From IMG/VR virus record IMGVR_UViG_3300025816_000008, positions 1 to 64,000 of that record: a DNA stretch of 64,000 bases. The stretch is one strand, 5' to 3'. Position numbers and translations under genes: made by a program. The notes beneath the pieces were generated by a model. That model was not told the origin of the DNA. It made no database searches and worked only from the letters and a program-made list of their open reading frames with translations. The stretch is from a virus. Below, piece after piece: positions 1,470-19,852 of this stretch. Numbering within the stretch: the first letter of the stretch is position 1; each line of letters begins with the position of its first letter.

Positions 1470-2087
1470 ATGTTTAAAAAAGAAAATATAGTTGAAGTAA
1501 GATGGACAAATGAGCAACAGGACACTATTTTAGTATTAATAAAAGATGGTGACAATAACTATGAAACTTTTATTGAAACAAATTCTGTTCAACATAAACA
1601 ACTAATAGATGTCGGATGGGACAATGAAAAAATTACAGAGGCTAGTGCTGAATGGAAAAAAGAACAATCTAGGGCTTTACATGAAGCCTTAACATATAAC
1701 ACTAGAGTAAAAGTAAGAGAAGAGCTCGATAAAATAGAAAAAGAGCATGATAGAAATAAAGCTGAGCTCGATGCTAAAAGCCAGGATATCATTAATTCAT
1801 GGAACGAAAAAATTGAAAAACTTCAATTAGAATTTATTACAAAATATACTGGTGTTAAATTAATGCATGAAAAACAGTTAAAAGACGTAGAAAAAATTAA
1901 TGCATCTAAAAATTCAGGTGATAGTGTAATAGAATTTATAATGAAAAATAATAAAAATACAAGTATTGTTAAAACACAAATAGAAAAAATTAGTGAATTA
2001 CCACACGTTGCTGAAAATAAAACTCTTTTAAATAAAGTTAAAAAATCAAAAACTCTTCTAACGGTATTATCTCATATAGCAAAATGA
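1470..2087 (+). CDS. Hypothetical protein with central coiled coil; paralog of 3263..3754
   Basis: N-term VRWTNEQQDTI resembles AHFIDEQRMNV of 3263..3754; C-terminal helices similar. Confidence 0.45.
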   Translation: MFKKENIVEVRWTNEQQDTILVLIKDGDNNYETFIETNSVQHKQLIDVGWDNEKITEASAEWKKEQSRALHEALTYNTRVKVREELDKIEKEHDRNKAELDAKSQDIINSWNEKIEKLQLEFITKYTGVKLMHEKQLKDVEKINASKNSGDSVIEFIMKNNKNTSIVKTQIEKISELPHVAENKTLLNKVKKSKTLLTVLSHIAK

Positions 2088-2659
2088 ATATAATTTTTGT
2101 GAAGTGGGGTACTAAATACTCTAGTGATGATGTAAATAAATTATACCAATCTTTAAATCAGTATGCAGATAATGCCTTTTATTGCTATACCGAAGATTCA
2201 TCTAATATCAATTCAAATATTAATATTATAGATATTCCACCTAAACCAGCTTTAAAAAAATGGTGGAATAAACTAGCAATGTTTAATAAAGACTTTCCTA
2301 TTCAAGGAAATAACATGTTTTTTGATTTAGATTTAAATATCAATTCAAATCCATTCTACGTATTAGATAAAGTGAATTGGGATACTTTGACTATGGTTAG
2401 TCGAGAAGATAAAATTGATATGCTAAATCATTCACATCATCATTTTAACGTTTCTGTTAATTCATCAGTTCTTTGTTGGAATAGCAATAACAAAAAAATA
2501 CATGAAATTTGGAATAAATTTATTAGTTCTGGTTTAAAGGATTATTATTTAAGAAAATACGTAGGAATAGATAGATATATTGTTCATGAAGAATTTGAGC
2601 ATTCTACATTTCCATTTGATTATATAAGAGATGAAGTGATTACACATGCAAAACGTTGA
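2084..2659 (+). CDS. Glycosyltransferase (GT-A fold)
   Basis: N-term IIFVKWGTKYSxxxVNKL, WWNKLxxF, DxD motif FFDLD, VNSSV. Confidence 0.75.
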   Translation: MNIIFVKWGTKYSSDDVNKLYQSLNQYADNAFYCYTEDSSNINSNINIIDIPPKPALKKWWNKLAMFNKDFPIQGNNMFFDLDLNINSNPFYVLDKVNWDTLTMVSREDKIDMLNHSHHHFNVSVNSSVLCWNSNNKKIHEIWNKFISSGLKDYYLRKYVGIDRYIVHEEFEHSTFPFDYIRDEVITHAKR

Positions 2660-3263
2660 AATATTAAGTAACGGTCTTTCAGCCGTCGAAAAACTTTATG
2701 ATCAATCGATGTACGGCCATGTCGATTTGTTCAGAATAAAAGATTTAGTTCATTCACTTAAGCCTAATCATTGGATTGGTAAACAATGGTTAGTTGATGA
2801 GCTTTTAAAAGTTTACGATGGAGATGGAATTATACATTGCGCAGGTGGATGGTATGGTTTAATAGCGTATTTAATAAAGCAAAAGTTTCAAAACAATACA
2901 GTTATTTCTTCAGATATTGATGAATATTGTTCAACTTTAGGTAAAGTATTATTTAAAGACAAGGGTATTAATTTTTATGATATGGACATGGCTATAGCCA
3001 GTATTAAAGGCGGAGATGTTTTCATTACTACAAGTGGAGAGCACATTGACAAAGAAGATTTAGTTAGTATAATCAATATGTGTAGTTATAAATACATCGT
3101 AATACAATCGAATGATTATTTTGAAGTGGATTCTCATATTAACTGTTCAGAAAACTTAGAAGAATTTAAGAATTATCTACAACCAACACTATCTAAAATT
3201 TATTACTGCGGTGAATTAAACTTAGGTAAATATAATAGATTTATGATAATAGGAGAAAAATAA
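2646..3263 (+). CDS. Class I SAM-dependent methyltransferase-like protein
   Basis: Motif I-like IHCAGGWYG, acidic SSDID after strand 2, ITTSGEH. Confidence 0.65.
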   Translation: MQNVEILSNGLSAVEKLYDQSMYGHVDLFRIKDLVHSLKPNHWIGKQWLVDELLKVYDGDGIIHCAGGWYGLIAYLIKQKFQNNTVISSDIDEYCSTLGKVLFKDKGINFYDMDMAIASIKGGDVFITTSGEHIDKEDLVSIINMCSYKYIVIQSNDYFEVDSHINCSENLEEFKNYLQPTLSKIYYCGELNLGKYNRFMIIGEK

Positions 3264-3754
3264 TGAAAGACCATAAATTTGTAACAGCTCATTTTATTGA
3301 TGAGCAAAGAATGAATGTACAATCATATTGGCTCAATGAGGAGACTTCTGATATTATTGAAAACATCACCGAAGTGAAAAAATGCAATGCGGCTTGGAAC
3401 GAGTTATTAACTCATATTACTATCGATAAAATACATGAGAATACATATGAAAATATTAGAGCTTCAGATCTTGCCTTTAAAGATCTAGTAGTAGATATTG
3501 CAAAAGAGAGAAATCTAGTTTATGACAAGGCTGATATAATGTCAGCTGACGTGTGGAAAGTAATTGCTGGTGTATTTGTTAAATTTAATCCAGAGAAAAA
3601 AGAAGAATTGTTTTTCTTAAAAATGGAATTATTTGAAAATGAAATTATAAAACAATGTACTGATCGAGAACTGAAAAAAGATTTAAGAAAAGCTACGGAT
3701 TTTGTTTCTGCGATTGAAGTTGCTTGTAAAATGTATAGATTAGTCGAAGGATAA
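3263..3754 (+). CDS. Hypothetical protein; paralog of 1470..2087
   Basis: Stop/start overlap (TAATG) with upstream gene; similar N- and C-termini to 1470..2087. Confidence 0.5.
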   Translation: MKDHKFVTAHFIDEQRMNVQSYWLNEETSDIIENITEVKKCNAAWNELLTHITIDKIHENTYENIRASDLAFKDLVVDIAKERNLVYDKADIMSADVWKVIAGVFVKFNPEKKEELFFLKMELFENEIIKQCTDRELKKDLRKATDFVSAIEVACKMYRLVEG

Positions 3755-4534
3755 ACCAAATTCTTTATTGACATGATGAATAAAATATGCCGCTTCGTTT
3801 ACATTTGGATATAAAGGATCTAATATAAAATTCCACTGTATTTCTAAATCGTTATGCGGAACGTTATATCTTTCAAGGAGATAGCTAATAAAGACTTCGT
3901 TGTTATGAAAAAAGTATTTAGATATTTCTTCTGGAAACATACAATCAGTTTGAGCTTCATTTAGCATAATTTTCATTTCTTCTAAGTGTCTAGAAAATTC
4001 TAGTTTTTTTATAGACTGAGAATCTCCAATTATCACTCCAGTATTATAAAGTTTATTATGTCCAGATATCCCATCTAATAATAACATAGAATTTTTTGCA
4101 GCTGTTTTACAAAAAACGCTATGTTGATCAAACAAGTGTAGATGATCTTTATTATTTTTATTTCGAATTTCCCATGCAATTTCTTTTTTAGTTAATTCTC
4201 TTTTTAAAGGATGCATTGATATTTTAGTTAAATCTACTGATTGAAAAATATCTTTAAAGATATGTGGAACAATATCAAAATCTAAGTATAATATCTCATC
4301 ATACTCTTCAGCATATTTTTCAAGTAGAAATATTTTTTCAAACTGAATTGAATCATAATTAGTAATGTCTGTTTCATGCAAAACGTATTCAGCATTACAT
4401 TTTTCAGCATATGCGCGTTGAGTTTCTTTAAGGTTATCTTTATATTTTATAAATTGAGATAACTTATATTTGTTCGTACTTATTGCTGTCTGCTCAACAC
4501 AGCCGTTATATATGCTATAAACAATTCTTTTCAT
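3740..4534 (-). CDS. Glycosyltransferase (GT-A fold)
   Basis: YDEILYLDFD DxD motif, YNTGV, WNF, C-terminal FIHHVNK; paralog of adjacent gene. Confidence 0.75.
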   Translation of the reverse strand: MKRIVYSIYNGCVEQTAISTNKYKLSQFIKYKDNLKETQRAYAEKCNAEYVLHETDITNYDSIQFEKIFLLEKYAEEYDEILYLDFDIVPHIFKDIFQSVDLTKISMHPLKRELTKKEIAWEIRNKNNKDHLHLFDQHSVFCKTAAKNSMLLLDGISGHNKLYNTGVIIGDSQSIKKLEFSRHLEEMKIMLNEAQTDCMFPEEISKYFFHNNEVFISYLLERYNVPHNDLEIQWNFILDPLYPNVNEAAYFIHHVNKEFGLSFD

Positions 4535-5438
4535 ACCAAACCTTTGCCCACTTAAATTCTTTATTGATTATATGTATGAATGCAGTTTTCTCAGGAACAA
4601 AATTAAAATTGTCCATGAACCAATGCCACTTTCTATTTATTTTATTAATTTTAACATTATTTTCATAGCATTTTACTGCAAACAATGTTTCATTATCCCA
4701 TCCAAATATTTCTTGAATATACTTAGGCCATAATGAAAATTCGTCTTCTCTTAATTCCGTCATTATCTCTAAGTACTCATCAAACTTATCAAAATAATTT
4801 AACTCTTCTAGTTGTGTTTTTGTTATGCCAACGATACCGGTATTAAACACACATATTTCTTTCGGAGCTTGAAATGTTAATTCTTGCATCATTGCCCTTG
4901 AATTCCAGTATTTAGCAGTAGGACTTCTTACACTTGCATATTTTCTTCCATCTAAACGATCAGCTTCTAATCTGCGTATAGTATCCGGATTATCTAATTC
5001 ATCCTGCACGCCTATAGCATAAGGTCTTTCGGCTCTAATAACTATTCCGGCTGTTAAATTCCATGCATCAAAAAAATTCTCTTTCGTAATAGGAAGAACA
5101 TCAAGATCTAAATATAATATTTCTTCAAATTCTTCTTTAAGAACGTACATAAGATGAATTTTATAAAAATTAACAATGTTATACGTAGTTAAGAATGGAT
5201 ATTTTCGTTTATATTCACTATCAAATGCTTTCCATTGATCATCATATTGATATAATCTATATTCTATTCCAATAGAATCGGCGTATGATCTTTGTCTTTC
5301 AGCTAACCAGTTTTTATATAGAGCAAATTCTCTTTTTGATTTATCATTTTTAGATTCGGTTTCTCCTTTAAACGGAGGCTGCCAATCTAATTCTTTTTCT
5401 GGTATATCAATATATATGCTAAAGATAATTCTTTTCAT
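4515..5438 (-). CDS. Glycosyltransferase (GT-A fold)
   Basis: EEILYLDLD DxD motif, FNTGI, DNETLF, FIHIINK; N-term MKRIIFSIY matches MKRIVYSIY of neighbour. Confidence 0.75.
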   Translation of the reverse strand: MKRIIFSIYIDIPEKELDWQPPFKGETESKNDKSKREFALYKNWLAERQRSYADSIGIEYRLYQYDDQWKAFDSEYKRKYPFLTTYNIVNFYKIHLMYVLKEEFEEILYLDLDVLPITKENFFDAWNLTAGIVIRAERPYAIGVQDELDNPDTIRRLEADRLDGRKYASVRSPTAKYWNSRAMMQELTFQAPKEICVFNTGIVGITKTQLEELNYFDKFDEYLEIMTELREDEFSLWPKYIQEIFGWDNETLFAVKCYENNVKINKINRKWHWFMDNFNFVPEKTAFIHIINKEFKWAKVWYEKNCL

Positions 5439-5474
5439 TATTATTCCTCGTAATATTATATCATATATATATGA

Positions 5475-6146
5475 ATGACAGAAGGACTTAGTTTGGAAAA
5501 TTATAATAACACCGTTGTAATAACTGCTGATAGAAATGGAAGTACTGCTTTTATTGAAAGCATAAAAAGAAATAACTATAATAGCACAGTTGAAATAAAT
5601 TTAGGAGAATGTTTTAGTCAAGATTATGGAAACCCAAGTCCCAAATTTTGGAATGAGCAAATATATAAGCCACCCCAAGTTATTGATGCTATTAATATTG
5701 GTACCGGAAAACGAGTGATAGTGAAATGTTTAATAACTTGGAAAAATTTTAATGAGTCTTATTTTGATATAAAATCTAAAAGAAAAATATTTTTATATCG
5801 AAATATGTTTGACAGCTCTTTGAGTAATTGTTTGGGCCAAAAAATTGGAACTTGGCACAATGATATGAGTACTGATACGCATACTATATCCAAAGAATTT
5901 TTTATTACAGTATTAGAATATCGAATAAAAAAATATAATAAGTTTTTAGATAAAATTTTAGATTGGACGAATGAAATTGTATTATACGAGGAATATAATT
6001 TTAAAAGAAATATACCACTAAGAAAACATCCAGACAGAAAGAAAATTGTTAGTAACTATGATGATCTAAAAGAAATATACAATGAATATGCGCATACTAT
6101 TAATACTATAGAAAATGATATATTGCTTGCTAAAGCAACACTTTAG
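5475..6146 (+). CDS. Sulfotransferase-like protein (P-loop/PAPS type)
   Basis: 5'-PSB-like VITADRNGSTAF, 3'-PB-like LYRNMFDSSLS, VLYEE; paralog of 13126..13821. Confidence 0.55.
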   Translation: MTEGLSLENYNNTVVITADRNGSTAFIESIKRNNYNSTVEINLGECFSQDYGNPSPKFWNEQIYKPPQVIDAINIGTGKRVIVKCLITWKNFNESYFDIKSKRKIFLYRNMFDSSLSNCLGQKIGTWHNDMSTDTHTISKEFFITVLEYRIKKYNKFLDKILDWTNEIVLYEEYNFKRNIPLRKHPDRKKIVSNYDDLKEIYNEYAHTINTIENDILLAKATL

Positions 6147-6161
6147 CGAAAGGATATAAAA

Positions 6162-6701
6162 ATGGTTAACAAAAAATTTACAACTGCATTATATGGCAGT
6201 TTAAAAAGACTAGTATGGGCAGATCATTTTTATGAAGGAGATTTATCCTTTTTAAATAACAGCTTTGATTCACCAGGAAAAGTTCTAGAATATTTACCGG
6301 TGTACGAATATATGTTTAATCAAAATAATAAATTCTATGTTGGCGATTTAGACCCTGAAGATATAAACGATTATCAATACAATCATTCATATGATTTAGT
6401 ACAAAAATATTTAAAACCTAATCCATATTACCGTGAAAAATATATAACTTCTTCTTGGATATTAGCAAGTGATAATAAAAATAATAAAGATCCTGCATAT
6501 TTAAAAAAAGTTCTTCAAGTTAAAGCAGAATTAGTTGATGTAATTGATTTAGGTGATAGTCGGAATTTTGACAATGTAAGTGAAATAATTAGGAAAATTA
6601 AAATTATTCAACAATCAAAATGCTATATCGGATCCTATGGATCTTGGGAAAATATTACGCGAATATACAATAAGCCGATTGCAGTATTATACCCCACGTG
6701 A
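6162..6701 (+). CDS. Hypothetical protein, possible degenerate GT-B (GT9-like) domain
   Basis: C-term KIIQQSKCYIGSYGSW...YNKPIAVLY resembles the GT9 C-terminal motif. Confidence 0.35.
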   Translation: MVNKKFTTALYGSLKRLVWADHFYEGDLSFLNNSFDSPGKVLEYLPVYEYMFNQNNKFYVGDLDPEDINDYQYNHSYDLVQKYLKPNPYYREKYITSSWILASDNKNNKDPAYLKKVLQVKAELVDVIDLGDSRNFDNVSEIIRKIKIIQQSKCYIGSYGSWENITRIYNKPIAVLYPT

Positions 6702-7721
6702 TATCGTTGTTCCATCAACTGAATCTAAATACCAAACTTCTATTAAATTAATTAAATTTTCGGCTTCACTATAGTTACGATAACCTTTAACTTTTTTAAT
6801 CTCTTTATTTAAATATAAAATAATTTTTTGTAAATCCTTAGAAGAAGAATGTTTTATCGTGACATGCGTTGGATATAGAACTGTGTTATACCATAAAGTG
6901 CAATTATGTTTTTCAGTGAATCGTACAAATTCAATCATTTCTTCCCAATTCATGTTCATTGGATTTACCATAATTGAAAGATTTCTTTTGTTACTATGAC
7001 AATATTCTTTAAATATTTTAAAATATTTCATTAGTGTATCAAAAGAACCGTTTATACGAATTTCTTCATATCTTCGAGGTATTAAACTGTCTATACTAAT
7101 GTTTAAATGGATATTGCATTTATCAAGAATACCTTGAACTCTTTTGTTATAAACCGTTCCATTTGTCGCAATGTTAACCTTCAATTCCGGTTTTAATTCT
7201 CCAACAATATCAAGAAGATCGAGCAATATTTTTTGCGCAAAAGGTTCACCGCCGTTTACTCTCAACTCTGTGAGGTGTGGTATAAATTCTTTCATTTGTT
7301 CTAAAAACGTATTATCAAAGATTTGCGGTAATGGTGGAAGCTTATCTCTGTTCTTTCGAATACCACTACTTAAAATTCCACTACACATAATACATTCTAG
7401 ATTGCATTGATTGCTTAATTCAATTTCCATCATGGAAGGCATATTATTTACTGGATAATTCTGATATGCTTTTGCAAGAGGCCATACGCCGTCATCAATA
7501 TCTTTTTTACATTCAATACATCTATTTAAAAATTTATTTTCCTGTAAAGCATCTCGATATTTCTGGAACTTATCACCTTTCCATATATCCATTAGTGATC
7601 TGTCTTTGCCCCACATATCACACGATCCTGGAAGTTTCCAACAAGGAGCTACTCTACCAGTAAGTTGAATATACATGTTATTGAAAGGTGCATTACATGG
7701 TGTTGTTTGACCGTAACTCAT
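6687..7721 (-). CDS. Radical SAM enzyme with N-terminal SPASM/twitch-like domain
   Basis: CNLECIMC (CxxxCxxC), GGEPF, TNGT, ISIDS; N-term C...GRVAPCW...CIEC. Confidence 0.85.
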   Translation of the reverse strand: MSYGQTTPCNAPFNNMYIQLTGRVAPCWKLPGSCDMWGKDRSLMDIWKGDKFQKYRDALQENKFLNRCIECKKDIDDGVWPLAKAYQNYPVNNMPSMMEIELSNQCNLECIMCSGILSSGIRKNRDKLPPLPQIFDNTFLEQMKEFIPHLTELRVNGGEPFAQKILLDLLDIVGELKPELKVNIATNGTVYNKRVQGILDKCNIHLNISIDSLIPRRYEEIRINGSFDTLMKYFKIFKEYCHSNKRNLSIMVNPMNMNWEEMIEFVRFTEKHNCTLWYNTVLYPTHVTIKHSSSKDLQKIILYLNKEIKKVKGYRNYSEAENLINLIEVWYLDSVDGTTISRGV

Positions 7722-9946: not shown

Positions 9947-9947
9947 A

Positions 9948-10827: not shown

Positions 10828-10831
10828 AAGA

Positions 10832-12664: not shown

Positions 12665-13126
12665 CTATTCAGTTTCTGCAGATTCAAATATTGTGATTGC
12701 AATTCTAGTTTCTGTTATATCGTATATATTATGAAACTTGCTTAGGTCTAAAAAATACCATTGTTTTTCAGGTAATACAACTCTTTCAATTTCGTTTTTA
12801 TCATCGTCAAACCAAACTGTACTAACATTTTCTCCGCCGCTTTTAATAATATAATTAAAAGCTGCAGCTCTACCCTTATCTTTATGTATTAATAATTCTC
12901 TAGTAATAAGTTGTATTTTTATTTTCATATTATTTGCAAAATGTGGAGACAAATAATCTATAATTGCAGAGCTAGGTTGATGTAAAGAATACCATGGAAT
13001 TTCGTAATTTTCTCCATCTCTAGCTTCAAAAGTATTAATAGTCGTTCTAACATTTTCTTCGGTTATTTGATTTACAAGATTTTGTGGAAGATCCGGTAAG
13101 TCTGGATAATGTGTGTATAATCCCAT
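12665..13126 (-). CDS. Putative Fe(II)/2OG-type (DSBH) dioxygenase
   Basis: IHKD (HxD), distal KFHNI, terminal RIAITI strand. Confidence 0.55.
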   Translation of the reverse strand: MGLYTHYPDLPDLPQNLVNQITEENVRTTINTFEARDGENYEIPWYSLHQPSSAIIDYLSPHFANNMKIKIQLITRELLIHKDKGRAAAFNYIIKSGGENVSTVWFDDDKNEIERVVLPEKQWYFLDLSKFHNIYDITETRIAITIFESAETE

Positions 13127-13821: not shown

Positions 13822-14606
13822 TAATCTGATTTTATTAATTTAACAAAATATTTTCCTAAATCGAATTCTCCAGGTTTATGATCCATATGCCATGAATTAG
13901 GATAGTGATGATGGTTGTTATGCAAAAACCCTCCCCAACTATACCAGCATAGTAGATAAGACATTAATCGTCTATTAGTAGAATTATCTTTTCTTTCAAA
14001 ATTCTTATACCCTTTGTCATGTTTGTCTGTGTGGTGTACTAATACTACGTTTAGCAAACTAAAACTATGAATAGTTATTACAGTTCCATAAATCATTCCA
14101 AACACAGCAATAGGCCACCAGATAATTAGTAATGTAATAAATGTTGTCCAATAGATTTTATAGAAGTTTCTATCTAGCCACATAACATACGAATCACGCA
14201 TCACATCTCTTGCTTGAAAAACGTTTATTTGTTCAAGCTTTCCCAAATATGTGCTATATAAACTAGATTTTATCAATCCGCTATTAGGGCTATGTGGGTC
14301 ATCATCAGTATCAGCGTGTGCGTGATGTTTTCGGTGCATGCATACAAAAAATATAGGAGATCCCAAGCCAGAAATAGAACCAAGGTATAATACAATCCTC
14401 TTTGTCCATTCTTTCATTTTAAATGATCGATGTGTTAAATACCTATGAAATCCAAGTTCAAAACCAAACTGGGAAGTTAATAAGTAGAAAAAAATTCCAA
14501 AACTTATGTAATGCCAATTATCGAATAATACTGGTAATGTGGAAAGCATTATAAGATGAACTGGAAAAAATATCTTTTTAGCATATTGCGTAAATTTCAT
14601 TTTCAT
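13821..14606 (-). CDS. Membrane-bound fatty acid desaturase (delta-9-like)
   Basis: His boxes HRYLTH, HRKHH, HNNHH; DTDDDPHSP; EFDLG. Confidence 0.85.
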   Translation of the reverse strand: MKMKFTQYAKKIFFPVHLIMLSTLPVLFDNWHYISFGIFFYLLTSQFGFELGFHRYLTHRSFKMKEWTKRIVLYLGSISGLGSPIFFVCMHRKHHAHADTDDDPHSPNSGLIKSSLYSTYLGKLEQINVFQARDVMRDSYVMWLDRNFYKIYWTTFITLLIIWWPIAVFGMIYGTVITIHSFSLLNVVLVHHTDKHDKGYKNFERKDNSTNRRLMSYLLCWYSWGGFLHNNHHHYPNSWHMDHKPGEFDLGKYFVKLIKSD

Positions 14607-15288
14607 TTTCCTCGTCTTCTAGTTGTCTTATATTAAACATCTTATCGCCATTTTGGATGAGTTTATCTGACGCTAATTGAAAAGATAAATTCACACGAGT
14701 TTCGTCATAAGGATTTGCAACAAAATGCGGTAAACAACTATTTAAATAATATGCATATCCTGGTTCTAACACATACACACCAAATTTTTCATTGATACTA
14801 TTTTTAACAAACACGTGATATTTTGTACTAATAGGTATATGGATTTTAAATCCATGAACTTCACAATTTAAATTATCTATATGTGGTTTAAGTCGTTTTT
14901 TCGGAGCAGCGCACATATATTGTTGCCTAAATGTTGGTCCAAAAGATTCAAGCACAGATTTAGTATTTTTCATTACTTCATCTTTTAAAATATTTGTGCC
15001 AAATTTACGTAATGAATACGAAATATAGTCGTTGCCATTCCAGCCTAATTTCACTAGATGTTTTTTTACTTCTTTTGGTGTAGCATCTATTAATATATCT
15101 TCAAGAGAATTTAAGAAATTATTTTCCAAGCTTTTAAAGGTATTGATGTATTCCTCAAAAAGTATGGCGGTGTTAAACGGCCCAGCGATACTAACTACTG
15201 CTGGATACTTTAAGTAATCACCAGTCACATTAACTGGAATTGTCTCGAAATCACCAATCGGCACAATATCATTTTTTAAGGTATCCAT
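14578..15288 (-). CDS. Aspartyl/asparaginyl beta-hydroxylase-like Fe(II)/2OG dioxygenase
   Basis: LKPHID, FKIHIPI, LEPGYAYYLN..PHFVAN..TRVNL. Confidence 0.75.
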   Translation of the reverse strand: MDTLKNDIVPIGDFETIPVNVTGDYLKYPAVVSIAGPFNTAILFEEYINTFKSLENNFLNSLEDILIDATPKEVKKHLVKLGWNGNDYISYSLRKFGTNILKDEVMKNTKSVLESFGPTFRQQYMCAAPKKRLKPHIDNLNCEVHGFKIHIPISTKYHVFVKNSINEKFGVYVLEPGYAYYLNSCLPHFVANPYDETRVNLSFQLASDKLIQNGDKMFNIRQLEDEENENEIYAIC

Positions 15289-15884
15289 ATTATGTGATCT
15301 CCGTATTTTTTATAACTTCTTTCTAATAAATCAAAGTGTTGTTTTTTATCTAGCCATATATGTAAAAACATAATGTATCTATTTGGATCATATATACTAT
15401 TCCAATGCCATATGTTTGTGTGCCCCATGACATACCAGTCAGTATCTTCAGGCAGTTCTGGATGAAAAACATTTTCACCTACTTCAATAGCTAAAGGATT
15501 TTTCACTTCTCCTTGTAAAATCATTCTGTATCCACATGGCTCACATTCAAGATTATGTTTATATAGATCAGGATTAACTTCAGGGTAAAAGAAATCTAAA
15601 TGTCTATGTTGTGGTCCTGCAGAATCCATTCTGTGAATTTTTACATTTACTAATTCTTTAATGGGTATATGTTGTTTTAAGTATTCCTTGAGCTTAAGTT
15701 GATTAACAGACATAGAATCTATCCATTTTGATTTACCATAATCTTTGCGTTTTTCAGTAAATCGCTGTAAACCATGAGCAAAAGGAATAGATTGTTCAAC
15801 ATATTCGTCGACAATAAACTTACTAAATTTAAATTTTGGGATGTCTACTGGCATCCATGCTATTTTAGAAAAATCAATATTCAC
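15276..15884 (-). CDS. Putative Fe(II)/2OG-type dioxygenase; paralog of 17198..17830
   Basis: HRHLD, distal IWH, RYIM; shares EPxxYR, LPExTD and LLxRSxxKYGD with 17198..17830. Confidence 0.6.
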   Translation of the reverse strand: MNIDFSKIAWMPVDIPKFKFSKFIVDEYVEQSIPFAHGLQRFTEKRKDYGKSKWIDSMSVNQLKLKEYLKQHIPIKELVNVKIHRMDSAGPQHRHLDFFYPEVNPDLYKHNLECEPCGYRMILQGEVKNPLAIEVGENVFHPELPEDTDWYVMGHTNIWHWNSIYDPNRYIMFLHIWLDKKQHFDLLERSYKKYGDHIIWIP

Positions 15885-16608
15885 CGGTTAATCCTGTCTC
15901 TGATCTAAATTTGTCACTAAATGTTCCCCAAATTTTCATGCTAACTGCTAGATGGTTTATAGCATCGGCGCCGTGATAATCTCGCTCATTAAAAAAACAT
16001 GATGTGGAGGTAATATTAATTTTTTTATTTGTATCAGTATCGTATATAAAGAATGATTTTTCTGGAGTTATTTTAAACCATAGAAATTCTGACTTATGAA
16101 ACTGATCATCTGGCGTATGTTTATCAGCGTGAATCACTGTAGGATTCATTGATTCCACTATATAAAATACAACTTTTTTAATAGTTTTAAATGGCAAACA
16201 TTTAGACCATTCTACTAATTCAGGAAACAATTTTGCGTTTTCTGTCCAGTCACCCTTTTCCCATAATACTAATGTACTAAACGGCTGGCTTCCGCCCATT
16301 AATTTAAGAAATATTCGTTGTTGTTCTGGCTCTAGTTTGGTGTATATATTTTTACATTCTGATGAATCATCCATACTTATAATTTCGTTATTCTTAGGAA
16401 AAAGAGGAACTAATGGCTTTCCAACATAATTTACTATATTATGCAAGTCATTGGGATCAAGAAACTCAAACTCTGAATTAAAATATTCAGAAACGTACGG
16501 CTTACTTTTTGCAATACCTTCGTATATTTTAAGTCTAAGGGAATCTAATTTTGTTGCGTTAGTATATTCATCAGCGTTAAAGTATGACTTGCCTAAAATA
16601 CCTTTCAT
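15874..16608 (-). CDS. Putative Fe(II)/2OG-type dioxygenase
   Basis: VIHAD (HxD), FFNERDYHG distal His, terminal SMKI strand. Confidence 0.55.
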   Translation of the reverse strand: MKGILGKSYFNADEYTNATKLDSLRLKIYEGIAKSKPYVSEYFNSEFEFLDPNDLHNIVNYVGKPLVPLFPKNNEIISMDDSSECKNIYTKLEPEQQRIFLKLMGGSQPFSTLVLWEKGDWTENAKLFPELVEWSKCLPFKTIKKVVFYIVESMNPTVIHADKHTPDDQFHKSEFLWFKITPEKSFFIYDTDTNKKINITSTSCFFNERDYHGADAINHLAVSMKIWGTFSDKFRSETGLTGEY

Positions 16609-17201
16609 AATATCTCCTTCAATGCAAAATTATAATTGCTGTTAATTTTATAATAGAAAATAGTTTGTAGCGTATTGTTAAATAATACTGGCTTATTAAA
16701 ATATTCAAACTTTCCTAATAGAGGTTTGTTTTTATTTGATTTGCGTTTTTTTAAATAATTACTAAACACTTTAAGAGTTTTATTATGTTCATATATTGTA
16801 AAAAATATAGCTTGTTTGTTTATATTTTTAGCATAATCAAGATGCTGATCTATTACTCCATCTTTATGCCATGTATAATTGTTTGCTATCTGCCGGAATT
16901 CAAACAAAGAATACCGATGCATTAAGATTCTAACGCTATTATTGTGTATTGCAGCGCCAGATATACCAACGATCTGATCGTTAATCTTAATAGCTTCTAT
17001 ACAATCAAAATAAGTTTTATCCCATTTCTTGTTACTAAACTTATAGATCTCCTCGATAAACTTGTTATTATAAAACTTGTTAACAAGTTCGTTATAAGAA
17101 AAATCTATGCTAGCCGATGCGCCTAGTTCATTATAAACCTTATGTCTAAAATGTGTTAGGTCAAAATCCCATTTATCATAATATCTCTCTATTGTTATCA
17201 C
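16605..17201 (-). CDS. Hypothetical protein, possibly GNAT-fold acyltransferase
   Basis: GTG start overlapping upstream TGA; DQIVGISG, RILMHRYSL..FR, AIFFTI pattern. Confidence 0.35.
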   Translation of the reverse strand: MITIERYYDKWDFDLTHFRHKVYNELGASASIDFSYNELVNKFYNNKFIEEIYKFSNKKWDKTYFDCIEAIKINDQIVGISGAAIHNNSVRILMHRYSLFEFRQIANNYTWHKDGVIDQHLDYAKNINKQAIFFTIYEHNKTLKVFSNYLKKRKSNKNKPLLGKFEYFNKPVLFNNTLQTIFYYKINSNYNFALKEIL

Positions 17202-17830
17202 TTTAAATCAGATCTTTTAACTAAGTAATCTCCGTATTTTTCTAAACTTCTTGTTAAAAGATTTTGATGTTTTTCTATATCTATATATCCATTTGTAATT
17301 ATAATAATTCTATCGGATTGAAAATCAACACCATGAACTTGATCAGTGTATGGCATTGCATAGACGTCAGTAGTTTCTGGTAAAATTGGATAAATCCTAT
17401 CTTCGATTTTACTATCTACGCTTTTTGAAACGTATACAGTATTTTTTCTTTCTCCTGATATAACTAGTCTATATGAACTTGGTTCATTTTTCTTTAAATG
17501 ATCAAAAACATCGGGTCTTCTATTTGGATCTTGATAATCGACATGAGGATGAACTACGTCTTTTGATTTCATCATTTTTGCATGGATATAATCAGTAAAA
17601 GGTATATGGTCAATCATCCATTGTTTAAGTTCAGGATATTTTTCTATTATTTCTTGTGTCCATTTATCAGTAGGTTCAAAGTTTTTTGTTTTTTCAAACA
17701 ACCGGATCGCATCCCACCAGCCATAGACAAACTCGGTTTCAAAATTCTTAATTATAGAATGTTTATTAGGAATTAAAGGTAAATCTATCGGAAGAAATGC
17801 AATATCTAAAAAATCTATGTTGTTAGTCAT
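17198..17830 (-). CDS. Putative Fe(II)/2OG-type dioxygenase; paralog of 15276..15884
   Basis: HPHVD, distal QVHG, DRIII. Confidence 0.6.
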   Translation of the reverse strand: MTNNIDFLDIAFLPIDLPLIPNKHSIIKNFETEFVYGWWDAIRLFEKTKNFEPTDKWTQEIIEKYPELKQWMIDHIPFTDYIHAKMMKSKDVVHPHVDYQDPNRRPDVFDHLKKNEPSSYRLVISGERKNTVYVSKSVDSKIEDRIYPILPETTDVYAMPYTDQVHGVDFQSDRIIIITNGYIDIEKHQNLLTRSLEKYGDYLVKRSDLK

Positions 17831-17836
17831 TTTCGA

Positions 17837-18568
17837 TTAGTCCTTTATATCTAAAACTTCACTAATTACTTCTTGACTATCAATACTAATAATTAAATGA
17901 TCACGCGCTGTCGGCCCGTTATTTACTGCGTAATGTTTATAACCAGGATTAATAAACCACACTGATCCGTCTGCAGGAATATGATATTTTATTTCATTTC
18001 CATCTTTATCAAATCCACCATTATAACACTCTTTATTAGTATCAACTGCGATGTGCAATCTAATGCCGTATTGAGTATCGTAATCGATGTGAGGTTTAAT
18101 ATTGCTTCCAGCTTGTAAACGTGCAAATCGTGTTCTATGTGCTCCATTAAACATGCCGAAAATCTCGCGCATGTATTCAGGAACGTCATCTTTCATTTTA
18201 CGATACCAGCGCTCATCTGCTACAGGGTCACCTTTTGCAATTCTATTGTCCCATACGGTGTTTGATTTTTCTTCGCGCTGGGATAAGTCATACGACTTGT
18301 CAAATTCAACAAGACTTAATTGTTGATAACTAGCATCTTCCCAATTAAGCTCTGTAATACAATCGACGCTTTTTAATTCGTCTTCATTAAAAAACATTTT
18401 TGGTAGTTTAGTATGGGTTTCACACATATGTTGATAATCAAATCCAAGGCCATCCCAGGTTTTACCTTCTGAAAATTGAGCTAACTCATCTTTAAGTCTT
18501 TTAATGTCAATTTGTATATCCAGTTTCTTAAGCACCGGTAATTCATTTCTTTTTTTCCACTTTTTCAT
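17837..18568 (-). CDS. Aspartyl/asparaginyl beta-hydroxylase-like Fe(II)/2OG dioxygenase
   Basis: RTRFARLQAGSNIKPHID, IRLHIA, DGSVWFIN..KHYAVNNG..ARDHLII; AGGAG RBS. Confidence 0.8.
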   Translation of the reverse strand: MKKWKKRNELPVLKKLDIQIDIKRLKDELAQFSEGKTWDGLGFDYQHMCETHTKLPKMFFNEDELKSVDCITELNWEDASYQQLSLVEFDKSYDLSQREEKSNTVWDNRIAKGDPVADERWYRKMKDDVPEYMREIFGMFNGAHRTRFARLQAGSNIKPHIDYDTQYGIRLHIAVDTNKECYNGGFDKDGNEIKYHIPADGSVWFINPGYKHYAVNNGPTARDHLIISIDSQEVISEVLDIKD

Positions 18569-18589
18569 TATACATCTCCTATGCGTACG

Positions 18590-19219
18590 TTATTTATTAA
18601 ATAGTTTCTCAGCAAGCCAACCGCCAGTATCAAATTTATGCAGTCTAATTCTTTTCCAATTATCGTGATGGTTTTTATGGTAACCTTCACCCGCAATAAA
18701 TAAATTTAACCAAGGAACGTTTAAAGGACCATTTCCATGTCCAAAAGTGTTTAATAATCCAAAACCAATTTTAGCAAAAATAAAAGGAATTAACGCAAAA
18801 GCAATAAAAAAATACGGAGATATTATATAACTGACTATCCATACTATACACACTATTTTAAACCAATGGTTATGACAAAAAACCAGCTTAGGATTTTTAT
18901 ATAAATCTCGAGCATATTTCGAAGGAATTTTAGGAAGATTCCAAGTAGTAGTTAAAACTTTCCAAAAGCCTACGTATTTTGGAGCATGAGGATCTTTGGG
19001 GCCATCACTATGCTGATGATGCATTCTATGAGATGCTATCCAACCAATAGGAGATTTTATAACTACTATCATTAACATAGCTAATCCAATTGTTTCAAAC
19101 CATCCTGGTACTTTAAATTGTTTATGACAATAGTGACGATGTAGCAGTATACTTGCTGCTAAGTGAGAAATTATTTCACTCCATATTAAACCAATTAATA
19201 TTGCTAATGTTAATTCCAT
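18590..19219 (-). CDS. Compact membrane-bound fatty acid desaturase
   Basis: His boxes HRHYCH, HRMHH, GEGYHKNHH; DGPKDPH; only 209 aa. Confidence 0.8.
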   Translation of the reverse strand: MELTLAILIGLIWSEIISHLAASILLHRHYCHKQFKVPGWFETIGLAMLMIVVIKSPIGWIASHRMHHQHSDGPKDPHAPKYVGFWKVLTTTWNLPKIPSKYARDLYKNPKLVFCHNHWFKIVCIVWIVSYIISPYFFIAFALIPFIFAKIGFGLLNTFGHGNGPLNVPWLNLFIAGEGYHKNHHDNWKRIRLHKFDTGGWLAEKLFNK

Positions 19220-19231
19220 TAGTTTATCCTT

Positions 19232-19852
19232 TTAACATCTTTTTAAGTTTTCTAAAATAGAAGTTATGCTATCTTCATTTAGAATAACGTTAAATACTAT
19301 CCAATAACTAGATAATGAAGATGCATTAAATAAAGTATGTTCTTTTAATGTATTTATAAAGTATAAATTACCATGATTCCAGTGTAAGGTTTTGTCACCT
19401 ATCATAAATCTAGTATCAGGCGGGTTACAATTTTCTAAAGGAACTATTAATCTGAATACTTTAACATTTAGTTTGTTTGAATCTCTATGTGCTGGAAAAT
19501 AGCCGCCAGATTCTATTTTTAATACATGAGACCGAAAAATTTTATTTTTCCATGGATCTACGATTAGTTTTAATTCAGGCCATTCAAAAACTGGGGTGGG
19601 AACATTAAAACTAGTTTCTTCCCATGATGTAGAATTTTCAAAGTTATATTCATGAATACTATCTAAATCGGGAATTCCTGTTACGCCACCATCTAAACTA
19701 GTTATGCTTAATCCAAATCTATTATTCTTTTTTCTAGGATTGTATTTAACATAATTAAAATTTTCTTCAGTCCAATTGATAAATTTTTTAGGATTCATTT
19801 TTAATTTAAGTTCTAATTGGTTAGATCCAAATGCTAATAATTTTTCAATCAT
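19232..19852 (-). CDS. Aspartyl/asparaginyl beta-hydroxylase-like Fe(II)/2OG dioxygenase
   Basis: RSHVLKIESGGYFPAHRD, FRLIVPL, GNLYFINTLKEHTLFN. Confidence 0.75.
   Translation of the reverse strand: MIEKLLAFGSNQLELKLKMNPKKFINWTEENFNYVKYNPRKKNNRFGLSITSLDGGVTGIPDLDSIHEYNFENSTSWEETSFNVPTPVFEWPELKLIVDPWKNKIFRSHVLKIESGGYFPAHRDSNKLNVKVFRLIVPLENCNPPDTRFMIGDKTLHWNHGNLYFINTLKEHTLFNASSLSSYWIVFNVILNEDSITSILENLKRC

What the first reader, a model, noticed from the sequence alone, without database searches (positions are those of the whole stretch)
2084..19852. ~18-kb biosynthetic-cluster-like island of ~27 genes inserted between tail-fibre genes
Seen: tightly overlapping genes (many ATGA/GTGA overlaps), nearly all tailoring enzymes, visibly more AT-rich than the head genes, mostly antisense to the flanking structural genes, and with no scaffold-building enzyme (no NRPS/PKS, no nucleotide-sugar synthesis, no obvious precursor peptide). 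Established: T4-like marine phages carry variable islands with 2OG oxygenases and GTs of largely unknown function. Inference: this breadth of chemistry without a scaffold enzyme implies a pre-existing macromolecular substrate such as virion protein, host lipid/LPS or DNA.
Basis: partly seen in the sequence, partly recalled or inferred. Interest (0 to 1): 0.75.

Follow-up and report, generated by a model that had tools for sequence, protein, structure and literature searches.

The report
Phage fibre-linked enzyme tailoring island
An abundant uncultured marine T4-like phage packs about 27 intact enzyme genes (sugar-transferring, radical-SAM, hydroxylating and fatty-acid-desaturating) next to its tail-fibre genes; the same gene sets recur in many ocean phages, and what they modify has never been tested.

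Summary
Window 2084-19852 carries 27 tightly packed ORFs, 22 of them on the minus strand, and is more AT-rich than its flanks. It is not foreign DNA, because third-codon-position GC matches the structural genes. It is also not a chance collection.

Three recurrent modules sit together:
1. **Fibre-linked sugar module.** Three GT-A/GT8-like glycosyltransferase-like genes and a methyltransferase-fold gene follow the fibre-module genes g02-g03 (539-2087, outside the given coordinates). In 18 of 19 related loci with enough downstream sequence, these enzymes come directly after g02.
2. **Radical SAM module.** Four single-auxiliary-cluster ("twitch") radical SAM enzymes. Two belong to the untested N-terminal-twitch family NF033640. 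Two are split into a core ORF and a twitch ORF.
3. **Oxidative arm.** Three SCD-type membrane desaturases, three to six Fe/2OG hydroxylase-like proteins, nitroreductase-like, GNAT-like and sulfotransferase-like proteins, and PrxQ.

Catalytic motifs are intact. The phage encodes SAM synthetase and nucleotide-sugar-pathway enzymes elsewhere.

My best reading (confidence about 0.4) is a sugar-based decoration built on the fibre-module protein, with separate lipid editing. Host-envelope remodelling is the main rival.

The literature already describes this hypervariable "host recognition cluster" (Zaragoza-Solas 2020), and this scan has met such islands repeatedly on other DNA.

The parts
539..1465 (+). 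g02, Ser/Thr-rich (22%) fibre-module protein of an unnamed, very abundant family. It is the anchor of the cassette and a candidate acceptor.
   Evidence: No Pfam or PHROG hit. 4312 unnamed homologues. 18 of 19 g02 loci with >=3 kb downstream carry >=2 core enzyme families in the next six genes.
1470..2087 (+). g03, charged protein that follows g02. Its stop overlaps the g04 start (ATGA).
   Evidence: Follows g02 in 19 of 26 loci. Overlap seen.
2084..2659 (+). g04, GT-A-fold retaining-type glycosyltransferase-like protein with an invariant DxD.
   Evidence: AF2 pLDDT 74.3. Foldseek PDB hits: BoGT6a 4ayj, UGGT, LgtC 1g9r, LARGE1, GlyE, glycogenin (E about 1e-6, TMq 0.5-0.62). D81/D83 invariant.
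2646..3263 (+). g05, class-I methyltransferase-fold (or aminopropyltransferase-like) protein. It is the commonest non-rSAM partner.
   Evidence: Profile A2 against PDB gives 3dtn at E 0.006 and spermidine synthases (weak). Found in 28 of 82 rSAM-anchored, 22 of 78 desaturase-anchored and 19 of 26 g02-anchored loci.
3263..3754 (+). g06, unknown protein that recurs in the cassette.
   Evidence: Found in 7 of 26 g02-anchored loci. No family.
3740..5438 (-). g07 (3740-4534) and g08 (4515-5438), paralogous GT8-like glycosyltransferase-like proteins with DxD.
   Evidence: Paralogues at E 9e-20. g07 scores 15.5 bits on PF01501, below cut-off. The fused homologue L008:13360-15069 scores 25.2 bits against a cut-off of 24.3.
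5475..6701 (+). g09 (5475-6146) and g10 (6162-6701), unknown. g09 has an 'RNGST' loop like that of g21.
   Evidence: No significant family or PDB hit. g10 recurs in 2 of 26 g02 loci.
6687..8862 (-). g11 (6687-7721) and g12 (7693-8814, or 8862 from the first TTG), N-terminal-twitch radical SAM pair.
   Evidence: On NF033640, g12 scores 284.1 bits and g11 139.4 bits against a cut-off of 170. CxxxCxxC and four N-terminal Cys are conserved in 71 sequences. g12 AF2 pLDDT 93.7.
8811..9946 (-). g14 (9200-9946, rSAM core) plus g13 (8811-9203, twitch-only ORF): a split C-terminal-twitch radical SAM enzyme.
   Evidence: PF04055 34.5 bits and PF13186 30.5 bits. g13 aligns to residues about 250-350 of fused 333-385-aa homologues. 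The pair is kept as a unit in L005-L009.
9948..10887 (-). g16 (10213-10887, rSAM core) plus g15 (9948-10241, twitch-only ORF): a second split enzyme.
   Evidence: g16 scores 18 bits on PF04055 (below cut-off), phrog_21308 at 4.7e-12, and has CxxxCxxC in its sequence. g15 aligns to the C-termini of fused homologues.
10832..11524 (-). g17, nitroreductase-like.
   Evidence: Its cluster member L025:17011-17691 hits PF00881 at 24.3 bits against a cut-off of 23.5. Found in 11 of 82 rSAM-anchored loci.
11509..12249 (-). g18, SCD-type membrane desaturase.
   Evidence: PF00487 47.4 bits. His boxes invariant. Family profile matches SCD1 4ymk at E 1.9e-27. TM-like segments present.
12246..12656 (-). g19, PrxQ/BCP-type peroxiredoxin.
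   Evidence: PF00578 99.8 bits. NF053650 at E 3.6e-28 but 98.4 bits, below its 260-bit cut-off.
12665..13821 (-). g20 (12665-13126, unknown) and g21 (13126-13821, sulfotransferase-like, weak).
   Evidence: g21 matches PF09037 at E 0.0011 over the N-terminal PAPS-loop region only, and NodH at E 1.2. g20 recurs in 8 of 78 desaturase loci.
13821..14606 (-). g22, SCD-type membrane desaturase.
   Evidence: PF00487 51.2 bits.
14578..16608 (-). g23 (14578-15288), g24 (15276-15884) and g25 (15874-16608): putative Fe/2OG cupin hydroxylases.
   Evidence: g23 scores 21.4 bits on PF05118 against a cut-off of 22.6. g24 is a paralogue of g27 at 2e-28. HxD...H is invariant in the g24/g27 and g25 families. 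hhalign to the PF05118-type family is not significant.
16605..17201 (-). g26, GNAT-fold acyltransferase-like.
   Evidence: Structural matches of the Atlas model to GNAT clusters, TM 0.58-0.69. No Pfam hit.
17198..17830 (-). g27, putative Fe/2OG dioxygenase (g24 paralogue).
   Evidence: Atlas feature score 0.97 to viral clusters auto-named prolyl 4-hydroxylase/2OG dioxygenase. Family found in 22 of 78 desaturase-anchored loci.
17837..18568 (-). g28, PF05118-type Fe/2OG hydroxylase.
   Evidence: PF05118 36.8 bits. PDB: L-proline cis-4-hydroxylase 4p7w at 1e-7 and Cpz10 7v4f at 6.5e-4. Family profile matches 7v4f at 3.3e-36.
18590..19219 (-). g29, SCD-type membrane desaturase.
   Evidence: PF00487 38.2 bits.
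19232..19852 (-). g30, PF05118-type hydroxylase at the cut-off. First gene of the 20-gene minus-strand run.
   Evidence: PF05118 22.6 bits, equal to the cut-off.
19896..19924 (-). Sigma-70-like promoter TTTACA-17-TGnTATAAT in the 164-nt gap upstream of g30.
   Evidence: An 11-of-12 match with extended -10. It is one of only three matches scoring >=11 of 12 in 19.4 kb. Sequence read. A consensus match only.

Best explanation
The island is this phage's version of a widespread, modular tailoring cassette that hangs on the 3' side of the fibre-module genes g02-g03.

Core. The core is made of three cytoplasmic GT-A/GT8-like glycosyltransferase-like proteins (g04, g07, g08), a methyltransferase-fold protein (g05) and four single-auxiliary-cluster radical SAM enzymes (g11, g12, g14+g13, g16+g15). 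I infer that it assembles and then edits a sugar-containing decoration. The radical SAM enzymes would do C-H chemistry on it, such as epimerisation, C-methylation or deoxygenation. Nucleotide sugars and SAM would be supplied partly by phage genes elsewhere (PMM, NDP-sugar dehydrogenase, MetK).

Acceptor. The most likely acceptor is the co-encoded Ser/Thr-rich fibre-module protein g02, that is, a virion decoration.

Accessory arm. This consists of three SCD-type membrane desaturases, three to six Fe/2OG hydroxylase-like proteins, nitroreductase-like, GNAT-like and sulfotransferase-like proteins, and PrxQ. It is a separately mobile module that edits acyl chains and/or further tailors the same product.

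Shown: gene families, intact motifs, modular co-occurrence and the linkage to g02. Inferred: sugar chemistry by the radical SAM enzymes, the acceptor, and the timing.
For: 1. Linkage to g02. Of 19 g02-anchored IMG/VR loci with >=3 kb downstream, 18 have >=2 core families in the next six genes. g03 follows g02 in 19 of 26 loci. GT-A g04 occurs with g02 in 5 of 6 loci and GT8 in 4 of 4. The g03 stop overlaps the g04 start.
2. Sugar transfer. The g04 model matches retaining GT-A enzymes, several of which glycosylate proteins (UGGT, glycogenin, GlyE). DxD is invariant. The fused g07/g08 homologue passes the GT8 cut-off.
3. Sugar-type partners in relatives. Carbamoyltransferase occurs in 10 of 82 loci and NAD-epimerase/dehydratase in 8 of 82. 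DegT, GT2 and carbamoyltransferase appear in 3 of 70 bacterial loci each.
4. Supply genes in the same record: PMM, UDP-Glc/GDP-Man dehydrogenase, cytidylyltransferase-like and MetK.
5. Timing in relatives. In 5 of 5 close relatives read, an exact TATAAATA lies just upstream of the co-directional run holding the rSAM core. In the window this motif precedes structural genes.
6. Location of the chemistry. All island proteins except the desaturases lack TM-like segments.
7. Genes are maintained. Catalytic motifs are intact. No indels were seen in four environmental runs across 19.9 kb, including a variant about 3% divergent.
Against: 1. N-twitch rSAM arrays are not tied to fibres elsewhere. In other phages their large neighbours include gp46/SbcC-like (8), DNA polymerase (2) and RNR (1). 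In 40 of 70 cellular loci they lie in Bdellovibrio-like genomes, amid housekeeping genes and without GTs in the four loci read.
2. MT-like g05 and the C-twitch rSAMs mostly occur without g02 (23 of 28 and 37 of 42 loci).
3. In this window 20 genes sit in an inverted run behind a sigma-70-like promoter rather than a late motif.
4. SCD-type desaturases act on acyl chains, not proteins.
5. The hydroxylases' nearest solved relatives act on small molecules.
6. The g02 linkage could simply reflect a permissive hypervariable site (the HRC of PMC7029224). The loci are also not phylogenetically independent.
7. No fold or family evidence says what g02 is.
8. The g12 fold search found only the generic rSAM core (TMq <=0.42).
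Confidence: 0.4

Rival explanations
1. Host-envelope remodelling. The enzymes act on host membrane glycoconjugates or lipids (LPS/lipid A, glycolipids, aminolipids). GTs add sugars. SCD-type desaturases and LpxO/OlsC-like PF05118 hydroxylases edit acyl chains. GNAT, methyltransferase and sulfotransferase modify head groups. The result would change the cell surface, for example to block superinfection or to stop progeny adsorbing to debris.
For: - Three intact SCD-type membrane desaturases.
- Desaturase arrays co-occur with hydroxylase-like genes in 49 of 78 loci and with rSAMs in 39 of 78.
- A sigma-70-like (host-type) promoter drives the 20-gene run.
- PMC7029224 (passages) interprets GT8 genes in pelagimyophage HRCs as O-chain modification.
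- Cyanophage vFADs are proven delta-9 lipid desaturases (PMC5776448, abstract).
- That PF05118 includes the lipid hydroxylases LpxO and OlsC is recalled, not tested.
Against: - No membrane GT, flippase, polymerase or acyltransferase of envelope pathways. Only the desaturases have TM-like segments.
- The window desaturases have no tblastn match at 1e-5 to any GenBank phage, vFAD carriers included.
- The hydroxylases' nearest solved relatives are soluble small-molecule enzymes.
- The GT core is linked to g02, not to the desaturases (GT8 in 0 of 78 desaturase-anchored loci).
Confidence: 0.27
2. Unrelated auxiliary genes. The block is a hypervariable-region accumulation of independent auxiliary metabolic genes with no shared substrate. 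Desaturases would serve membrane fluidity, PrxQ oxidative stress, hydroxylases assorted targets, and the rSAMs something else.
For: - The modules are separable. Desaturases occur in only 8 of 82 rSAM-anchored loci and N-twitch rSAMs in 27 of 78 desaturase-anchored loci.
- PrxQ, g09, g10, g21 and g26 recur in 0-2 other loci.
- Order and strand of modules differ between relatives.
- HRCs are known mosaics.
Against: - Within each anchored set the families co-occur more often than independence predicts. Any rSAM versus any hydroxylase gives OR 4.5, p 0.0045. rSAM versus MT-like gives OR 5.3, p 0.005 (not corrected for relatedness).
- Packing is tight at 99.4% coding with translational coupling.
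- The core follows g02 in 18 of 19 loci.
Confidence: 0.15
3. Diffusible small molecule. The enzymes tailor a nucleotide-, nucleoside- or sugar-derived metabolite. A nucleotide or nucleotide sugar serves as the 'scaffold', so no scaffold-building enzyme is needed. This parallels liponucleoside antibiotic pathways, which combine Fe/2OG hydroxylases, GTs, methyl- and sulfotransferases and acyl chains.
For: - The hydroxylase family profile matches Cpz10 of caprazamycin biosynthesis at E 3.3e-36, and L-proline cis-4-hydroxylase (PMC9814697 abstract).
- Weak rSAM hits to BlsE and viperin-like nucleotide enzymes.
- Twitch-type enzymes such as BtrN and MoaA act on small molecules (recalled).
- Standalone arrays occur in predatory bacteria.
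Against: - No exporter, self-resistance gene or amino-acid/nucleoside-coupling enzyme in the island.
- The Cpz10 match is driven by other family members. g28 itself scores only 6.5e-4.
- The linkage to the fibre module is left unexplained.
Confidence: 0.13
4. RiPP-like peptide maturation or phage DNA modification.
For: rSAM/SPASM-twitch enzymes and PF05118 hydroxylases are typical peptide modifiers. The NCBIfam hits to RiPP maturases are weak, with E-values of 1e-9 to 1e-13, far below their cut-offs. The phage makes modified cytosine elsewhere (scan notes e1-6061084 to e1-6061086, not tested here).
Against: - No room for a precursor gene (99.4% coding).
- Small ORFs next to the rSAMs in relatives look like HTH or fibre-tip proteins.
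- Only one auxiliary cluster's worth of Cys, not a full SPASM.
- No DNA-binding or base-flipping family in the island.
Confidence: 0.03

Closest known systems
Host recognition cluster (HRC) of pelagimyophages and cyanomyophages (Zaragoza-Solas et al. 2020, PMC7029224; passages read)
   Same: A large hypervariable region inside the structural module of marine T4-like phages. [quoted passage not shown] The paper also lists aspartyl/asparaginyl beta-hydroxylase among core pelagimyophage genes. The window's head genes are about 67-69% identical in DNA to pelagimyophages.
   Different: The paper does not dissect the enzyme modules, the N-twitch family, the split rSAMs, the desaturase-hydroxylase arm or the g02 linkage. 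It proposes O-chain modification without a test. VrlC, its left landmark, was not identified here because the record starts inside g01.
NCBIfam NF033640, N_Twi_rSAM (twitch domain-containing radical SAM protein)
   Same: g12 scores 284.1 bits against a cut-off of 170 over the full model. It has the N-terminal 4-Cys domain and CxxxCxxC.
   Different: No member has a described substrate. A full-text search for the accession, model name and phrases found no paper on the family. g11 scores below the cut-off at 139.4 bits. Here the genes form arrays. In the 82 anchored phage loci there are 285 genes.
Stearoyl-CoA desaturase SCD1 (PDB 4ymk, 4zyo) and cyanophage vFAD delta-9 lipid desaturases (Roitman et al. 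2018, PMC5776448; abstract read)
   Same: The family profile aligns to SCD1 over nearly its whole length at E 1.9e-27. All His-box ligands are invariant and hydrophobic segments lie in the expected places. They are phage-encoded, like the vFADs.
   Different: They are short (209-261 aa). There are three paralogues only 25-29% identical to each other. None has a tblastn match at 1e-5 in 50,697 GenBank phage records. Regiospecificity and substrate are untested.
Cpz10 (PDB 7v4f; PMC9814697, abstract read) and L-proline cis-4-hydroxylase (PDB 4p7w)
   Same: Best solved relatives of the g28-type hydroxylase family (E 3.3e-36 and 1.9e-12 for the profile). The HxD...H and Arg residues are conserved.
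   Different: g28 itself is distant (1e-7 and 6.5e-4). g23, g24, g25, g27 and g30 give no significant PDB sequence match. The phage genes sit in arrays with desaturases, not in an antibiotic cluster.
Cytoplasmic O-glycosylation of serine-rich-repeat adhesins by GT8-type enzymes (e.g. GlyE, PDB 5gvw) and virion glycosylation in mycobacteriophages and chloroviruses (recalled, no paper read here)
   Same: Soluble GT-A enzymes encoded beside a Ser/Thr-rich fibrous adhesin. GlyE appears among the fold matches of g04 (ranks 34 and 38).
   Different: Those systems contain no radical SAM, Fe/2OG or desaturase genes. Glycosylation of g02 is an inference only.

Membership tests
NF033640 N_Twi_rSAM | Whole-protein score over the curated cut-off (170 bits) | tested here: met
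   g12 scores 284.1 bits over model positions 2-397 of 398. g11 scores 139.4 bits and does not meet it.
NF033640 N_Twi_rSAM | N-terminal 4-Cys twitch domain followed by a CxxxCxxC radical SAM core | tested here: met
   C21, C79, C82, C126, C130 and C133 are invariant, and C39 is >=90% conserved, in 71 sequences. The Pfam SPASM hit lies N-terminal of the Radical_SAM hit in both g11 and g12.
C-terminal SPASM/twitch radical SAM enzymes | rSAM core and auxiliary-cluster domain in one polypeptide | tested here: not met
   g14/g13 and g16/g15 are separate ORFs in different frames. g13 and g15 align to the C-terminal ~100 residues of fused 333-385-aa homologues. The split is kept in L005-L009 for both pairs, and in L010 for the one C-twitch pair present there.
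Membrane fatty-acid desaturase, SCD/delta-9 type (PF00487) | Pfam score over cut-off, and three His boxes (HxxxxH, HxxHH, HxxHH) | tested here: met
   47.4, 51.2 and 38.2 bits against a cut-off of 29.7. H54/H59, H91/H94/H95 and H229/H232/H233 are invariant. SCD1 match at E 1.9e-27.
Membrane fatty-acid desaturase, SCD/delta-9 type (PF00487) | Delta-9 regiospecificity on acyl-CoA or acyl-lipid | not testable with these tools
   Needs expression and fatty-acid analysis.
Cyanophage vFAD (Roitman 2018) | Close sequence relationship to vFADs of sequenced cyanophages | tested here: not met
   tblastn of g22 against 50,697 phage records gives no match at E 1e-5. Only g22 of the three was searched.
PF05118 Asp/Asn beta-hydroxylase-type Fe/2OG oxygenases | Pfam score over cut-off (22.6 bits), and the HxD...H triad with a 2OG-binding Arg | tested here: met
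   g28 scores 36.8 bits. g30 scores 22.6 bits, exactly at the cut-off. g23 scores 21.4 bits and does not meet it. R145, R147, H160, D162, H212 and R222 are invariant in 18 sequences.
PF05118 Asp/Asn beta-hydroxylase-type Fe/2OG oxygenases | Protein (EGF-domain Asp/Asn) substrate | tested here: inconclusive
   No human ASPH chain appears among the PDB matches at E<=1. The best matches are the small-molecule hydroxylases Cpz10 and L-proline cis-4-hydroxylase.
GT8 / GT-A retaining glycosyltransferases | GT-A fold with DxD, and the PF01501 cut-off (24.3 bits) | tested here: inconclusive
   g04 has the fold and an invariant DxD but no Pfam hit. g07 scores 15.5 bits, below cut-off. The fused homologue in L008 scores 25.2 bits. 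Donor and acceptor were not tested.
Pelagimyophage/cyanomyophage HRC | Hypervariable block between VrlC and the neck gene gp14, holding tail fibres and non-fibre enzymes | tested here: inconclusive
   The neck protein (47416-48474) and gp15 (48474-49271) lie downstream, with giant fibre-like ORFs in between. VrlC was not found because the record begins inside g01.
RiPP biosynthetic cluster | A precursor peptide gene next to the maturases | tested here: not met
   99.4% of the island is covered by the 27 ORFs. Small ORFs beside the rSAMs in relatives look like HTH or fibre-tip proteins.
Phage O-antigen/LPS modification systems (Gtr-type, Wzx/Wzy-dependent) | Membrane GT, flippase or polymerase components | tested here: not met
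   There are no such Pfam/NCBIfam hits. Only the three desaturases have TM-like segments.

The most novel reading that the evidence does not exclude
Marine T4-like phages chemically decorate their own receptor-binding fibre-module proteins. A cytoplasmic GT-A trio would glycosylate the Ser/Thr-rich g02 protein. Arrays of the never-characterised N-terminal-twitch radical SAM enzymes, helped by an MTase-fold protein, Fe/2OG hydroxylases and sulfo-, carbamoyl- and acyl-transferases, would then rewrite the glycan by C-H chemistry. This would give phages a rapidly shuffled, enzyme-encoded layer of host-recognition or camouflage chemistry. Bdellovibrio-like predators would share the same toolkit.
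Probability: 0.22. Interest if true: 0.85.

Novelty: new variant of a known kind. Interest (0 to 1): 0.55.

Why it matters
These gene sets are common. The tools estimate about 2000 IMG/VR stretches with the N-twitch rSAM pattern and about 810 with the desaturase patterns. The g02 family has 4312 homologues.

This exact island is nearly identical in marine metagenomes from several independent studies between 2014 and 2024.

Despite that, no member of the central radical SAM family has a known substrate, and nobody has tested what the cassette modifies. If it decorates fibres, it adds an unrecognised layer to phage host recognition in the ocean's most abundant phage-host systems. If it edits host envelopes or lipids, it is a large unexplored class of auxiliary metabolism. 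Either way, the g02-plus-GT core gives a small, directly testable unit.

Tried and rejected
- **Foreign origin of the island.** Rejected. GC3 equals that of the structural genes.
- **Near-identical or similar DNA in GenBank phages.** No megablast match for the island.
- **g27 relatives in IMG/VR from a single protein.** None confirmed.
- **Common ancestry of the g24/g27, g25 and PF05118-type families by hhalign.** Not significant (probabilities 0.3-3.9%). Their oxygenase assignment rests on motifs and one Atlas lead.
- **PDB sequence searches for g09, g21, g23, g30, A4 and A5.** Nothing significant.
- **g12 fold search.** Only the generic rSAM core matched (anSME, CteB, SkfB, viperins, BlsE; TMq <=0.42). 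No substrate clue.
- **Bacterial neighbourhoods as a guide to function.** The four Bdellovibrionales loci read show arrays amid housekeeping genes and transposases with no consistent partner.
- **Fibre adjacency as a universal rule for rSAM arrays.** Rejected.
- **MetK as a marker of rSAM-array phages.** Present in 9 of 40 other records, but no control set was run, so no enrichment is claimed.
- **Expression.** RNA-library contigs from one study cover all 30 bins. DNA carry-over cannot be excluded, and contigs give neither strand nor level.
- **Overall promoter and late-motif counts.** Not above shuffles (114 vs 132 and 14 vs 18.4). Only their positions are used.
- **RiPP and DNA-modification readings.** See the rival explanations.
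- **Desaturase alignment A8.** Too divergent for a collection scan. A smaller alignment, A9, was used instead.

Full report
**What the window is.** It is the first 64 kb of an 89,975-base linear IMG/VR virus record estimated 53% complete. Its head, neck and tail genes are T4-type: gp23, portal, sheath, gp15 and neck protein. Their DNA is 66-69% identical to Phage C48C1, to the Pelagibacter myophages Mosig and HTVC008M, and to related marine phages. The island has no megablast match in 50,697 GenBank phage records.

**Checking the observation.**
- Between 2084 and 19852 I find 27 ORFs, numbered g04-g30. They cover 99.4% of the stretch.
- As called from the first start codon, 19 of 26 junctions overlap. 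Five are ATGA/GTGA overlaps.
- g12 more likely starts at the ATG at 8814, which makes a sixth ATGA overlap. This fits the low confidence of its first 14 residues in the model.
- 22 of the 27 genes are on the minus strand.
- Island GC is 0.291, against 0.353 downstream. Third-position GC is the same in island genes and structural genes. The AT-richness reflects protein composition, and nothing marks the block as recently acquired.

**Gene content.**

*Curated cut-offs are passed by:*
- radical SAM and SPASM/twitch domains in g11, g12, g13 and g14;
- FA_desaturase in g18, g22 and g29;
- AhpC/TSA (PrxQ-like) in g19;
- PF05118 in g28, and exactly at the cut-off in g30.

*Radical SAM genes.* g12 is a full-length member of NCBIfam NF033640 (284 bits against a cut-off of 170). 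g11 scores below the cut-off at 139 bits. In both, the 4-Cys auxiliary domain lies N-terminal of the CxxxCxxC core. In a 71-sequence alignment six of these seven Cys are invariant and the seventh (C39) is conserved in at least 90% of sequences.

g13 and g15 are stand-alone twitch ORFs. They align to the last ~100 residues of fused 333-385-aa homologues in other phages. So g14+g13 and g16+g15 are split enzymes. Both splits are kept in L005-L009. L010 keeps the one C-twitch pair it carries.

*Glycosyltransferase-like and methyltransferase-like genes.* g04 models as a GT-A fold (pLDDT 74). It matches retaining glycosyltransferases: BoGT6a, UGGT, LgtC, LARGE1, GlyE and glycogenin. Its DxD is invariant. 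g07 and g08 are paralogues. Their fused homologue in L008 passes the GT8 cut-off. g05 has a class-I methyltransferase-type Rossmann pattern with weak PDB support.

*Other genes.*
- g17 belongs to a cluster whose members reach the nitroreductase cut-off.
- The Atlas model of g26 matches GNAT folds.
- g24 and g27 are paralogues. They have an invariant HxD...H and an Atlas lead to viral 2OG-dioxygenase clusters.
- g25 has the same motif only.
- g21 has a weak sulfotransferase PAPS-loop match.
- g06, g09, g10 and g20 remain unassigned.

*Desaturases and hydroxylases.* The desaturase family profile aligns to SCD1 almost end to end (E 1.9e-27), with all His ligands invariant. Only these three island proteins have TM-like segments. 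The g28-type hydroxylase profile matches Cpz10, a small-molecule beta-hydroxylase of caprazamycin biosynthesis, at E 3.3e-36. It also matches L-proline cis-4-hydroxylase.

**Is it a coherent cluster?** I anchored four neighbourhood surveys, each with 10 kb flanks.

| Anchor | Loci | Main result |
|---|---|---|
| N-twitch rSAM, phages | 82 (window included) | 285 N-twitch genes; C-twitch rSAMs in 42 loci; g05-like in 28; two PF05118-type clusters in 23 and 24; nitroreductase-like in 11; carbamoyltransferase in 10; desaturases in 8 |
| Desaturase, phages | 78 | 156 desaturase genes; any hydroxylase-like gene in 49 loci; N-twitch rSAMs in 27; g05-like in 22; g24/g27 family in 22 |
| N-twitch rSAM, cellular genomes | 70 | 40 loci are Bdellovibrio-like MAGs, again with arrays. 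DegT, GT2, carbamoyltransferase, B12-rSAM and PF05118 genes appear in a few loci. Four chromosomal loci read in full show no consistent partner. |
| g02, phages | 26 | Of 19 loci with >=3 kb downstream, 18 have at least two core families (GT-A, GT8, MT-like, twitch rSAMs, carbamoyltransferase) in the next six genes. g03 follows g02 in 19 of 26. |

The g02 survey followed a lead from scan note e1-5835033.

GT-A g04 and GT8 occur almost only with g02 (5 of 6 and 4 of 4 loci). The MT-like and rSAM families mostly occur without it.

The island is therefore a composite of three modules:
- a lineage-specific g02-g03-GT module;
- a broadly distributed rSAM/MT-like module;
- a desaturase-hydroxylase module.

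All counts are on related, non-independent loci.

**Supply genes.** Outside the window, the record encodes PEPCK, SAM synthetase, phosphomannomutase, a cytidylyltransferase-like protein and a UDP-glucose/GDP-mannose dehydrogenase. MetK also occurs in 9 of 40 other records with rSAM arrays. No control was run for this.

**Timing.** The motif TATAAATA is the T4 late-promoter consensus (recalled). In the window, 9 of its 12 plus-strand occurrences lie 20-73 nt upstream of plus-strand ORF starts, most of them structural or fibre-module genes. In five close relatives it lies just upstream of the co-directional run that holds the rSAM core. In the window, however, the 20-gene minus-strand run g30-g11 is preceded by an 11-of-12 sigma-70-like promoter with an extended -10, and by only one-mismatch late motifs. 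g04-g06 continue the g01-g03 transcription direction. Timing is therefore unsettled.

**Occurrence in nature.** 17 DNA runs hold at least 0.79 of the sampled words. Several of these come from studies not flagged as a possible source. Two metatranscriptome runs from one study hold 0.57-0.58. Laid contigs cover every bin and show no indels, even in a variant about 3% divergent. This fits maintained reading frames but does not prove transcription.

**Interpretation.** I commit, at about 0.4, to a sugar-based decoration built by the GT/MT/rSAM core, most likely on the fibre-module protein g02. The desaturase-hydroxylase arm would be a separate acyl- or small-molecule-editing module. The main rival, at about 0.27, is remodelling of host envelope glycoconjugates or lipids. 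The lesser rivals are unrelated auxiliary genes (0.15), a diffusible nucleotide- or sugar-derived metabolite (0.13), and RiPP or DNA modification (0.03).

**Comparison with what is known.** The region is the 'host recognition cluster' described for pelagimyophages, where GT8 genes and radical SAM cassettes were noted and O-chain modification was proposed (PMC7029224, passages). Phage delta-9 desaturases are proven in cyanophages (PMC5776448, abstract), but the ones here are not close to any in GenBank phages. A full-text search found no paper on NF033640. This scan has reported similar islands on other DNA several times. I therefore rate the finding a new variant of a known kind, of moderate-to-good interest. 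This window adds the g02 linkage test, the split rSAM pairs and the modular dissection.

Noticed in passing
window 8811-10887 (g13-g16); L005-L010: Two C-terminal-twitch radical SAM enzymes are each split into a core ORF and a stand-alone twitch ORF, with overlapping or abutting stops and starts. Homologues in other phages are fused proteins of 333-385 aa. Both splits are kept in L005-L009, and L010 keeps the one pair it carries, so this is a maintained two-piece form and not decay.
   Followed up: partly
own record beyond the window, G000:C1:74657-77689 (L086:10958-13990): PEP carboxykinase, SAM synthetase (MetK) and a eukaryotic-type phosphomannomutase lie side by side after the DNA polymerase gene. 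MetK recurs in 9 of 40 other viral records with rSAM arrays. No control was run.
   Followed up: partly
L088-L157 (genome contigs): 40 of the 70 best cellular loci with N-twitch radical SAM genes are from Bdellovibrio-like predators (Bdellovibrionales, Bacteriovoracia, Oligoflexia MAGs). They often carry tandem arrays of 3-5 paralogues, sometimes next to transposases.
   Followed up: partly
window 3046-3094 (+), inside g05: A perfect 12-of-12 sigma-70 consensus (TTGACA-16-TATAAT) is followed 14 nt later by TATAAATA, about 170 nt upstream of g06. It could be an internal promoter pair.
   Followed up: no
window 20704-33987 (+): A 4427-aa fibre-like ORF with a below-cut-off YadA-head-repeat hit (23.9 bits vs 25), preceded by a late-type motif at 20657. 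An earlier scan note (e1-6061087) reports an Asp-Ser excess in it.
   Followed up: no
L005:8995-9255 and L007:7064-7306: A small ORF with a Fis-type HTH-like C-terminus sits between a TATAAATA motif and the N-twitch rSAM pair. It may be a dedicated regulator of the cassette in that lineage.
   Followed up: no
L005:12098-12763: A 221-aa ORF with a 'PRTASTY' P-loop like those of g21 and g09 lies between the N-twitch and C-twitch rSAM pairs. Sulfotransferase-like genes may be a recurrent but fast-evolving part of the module.
   Followed up: no
window 7693-8862 compared with 539-1465, against L008: The N-twitch pair is far more conserved between the window and L008/L009 (80% and 77% identity) than the neighbouring fibre-module protein g02 (31%) or the GT and MT-like genes (27-44%). 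This suggests either exchange of the rSAM pair between phages or much stronger constraint on it.
   Followed up: no
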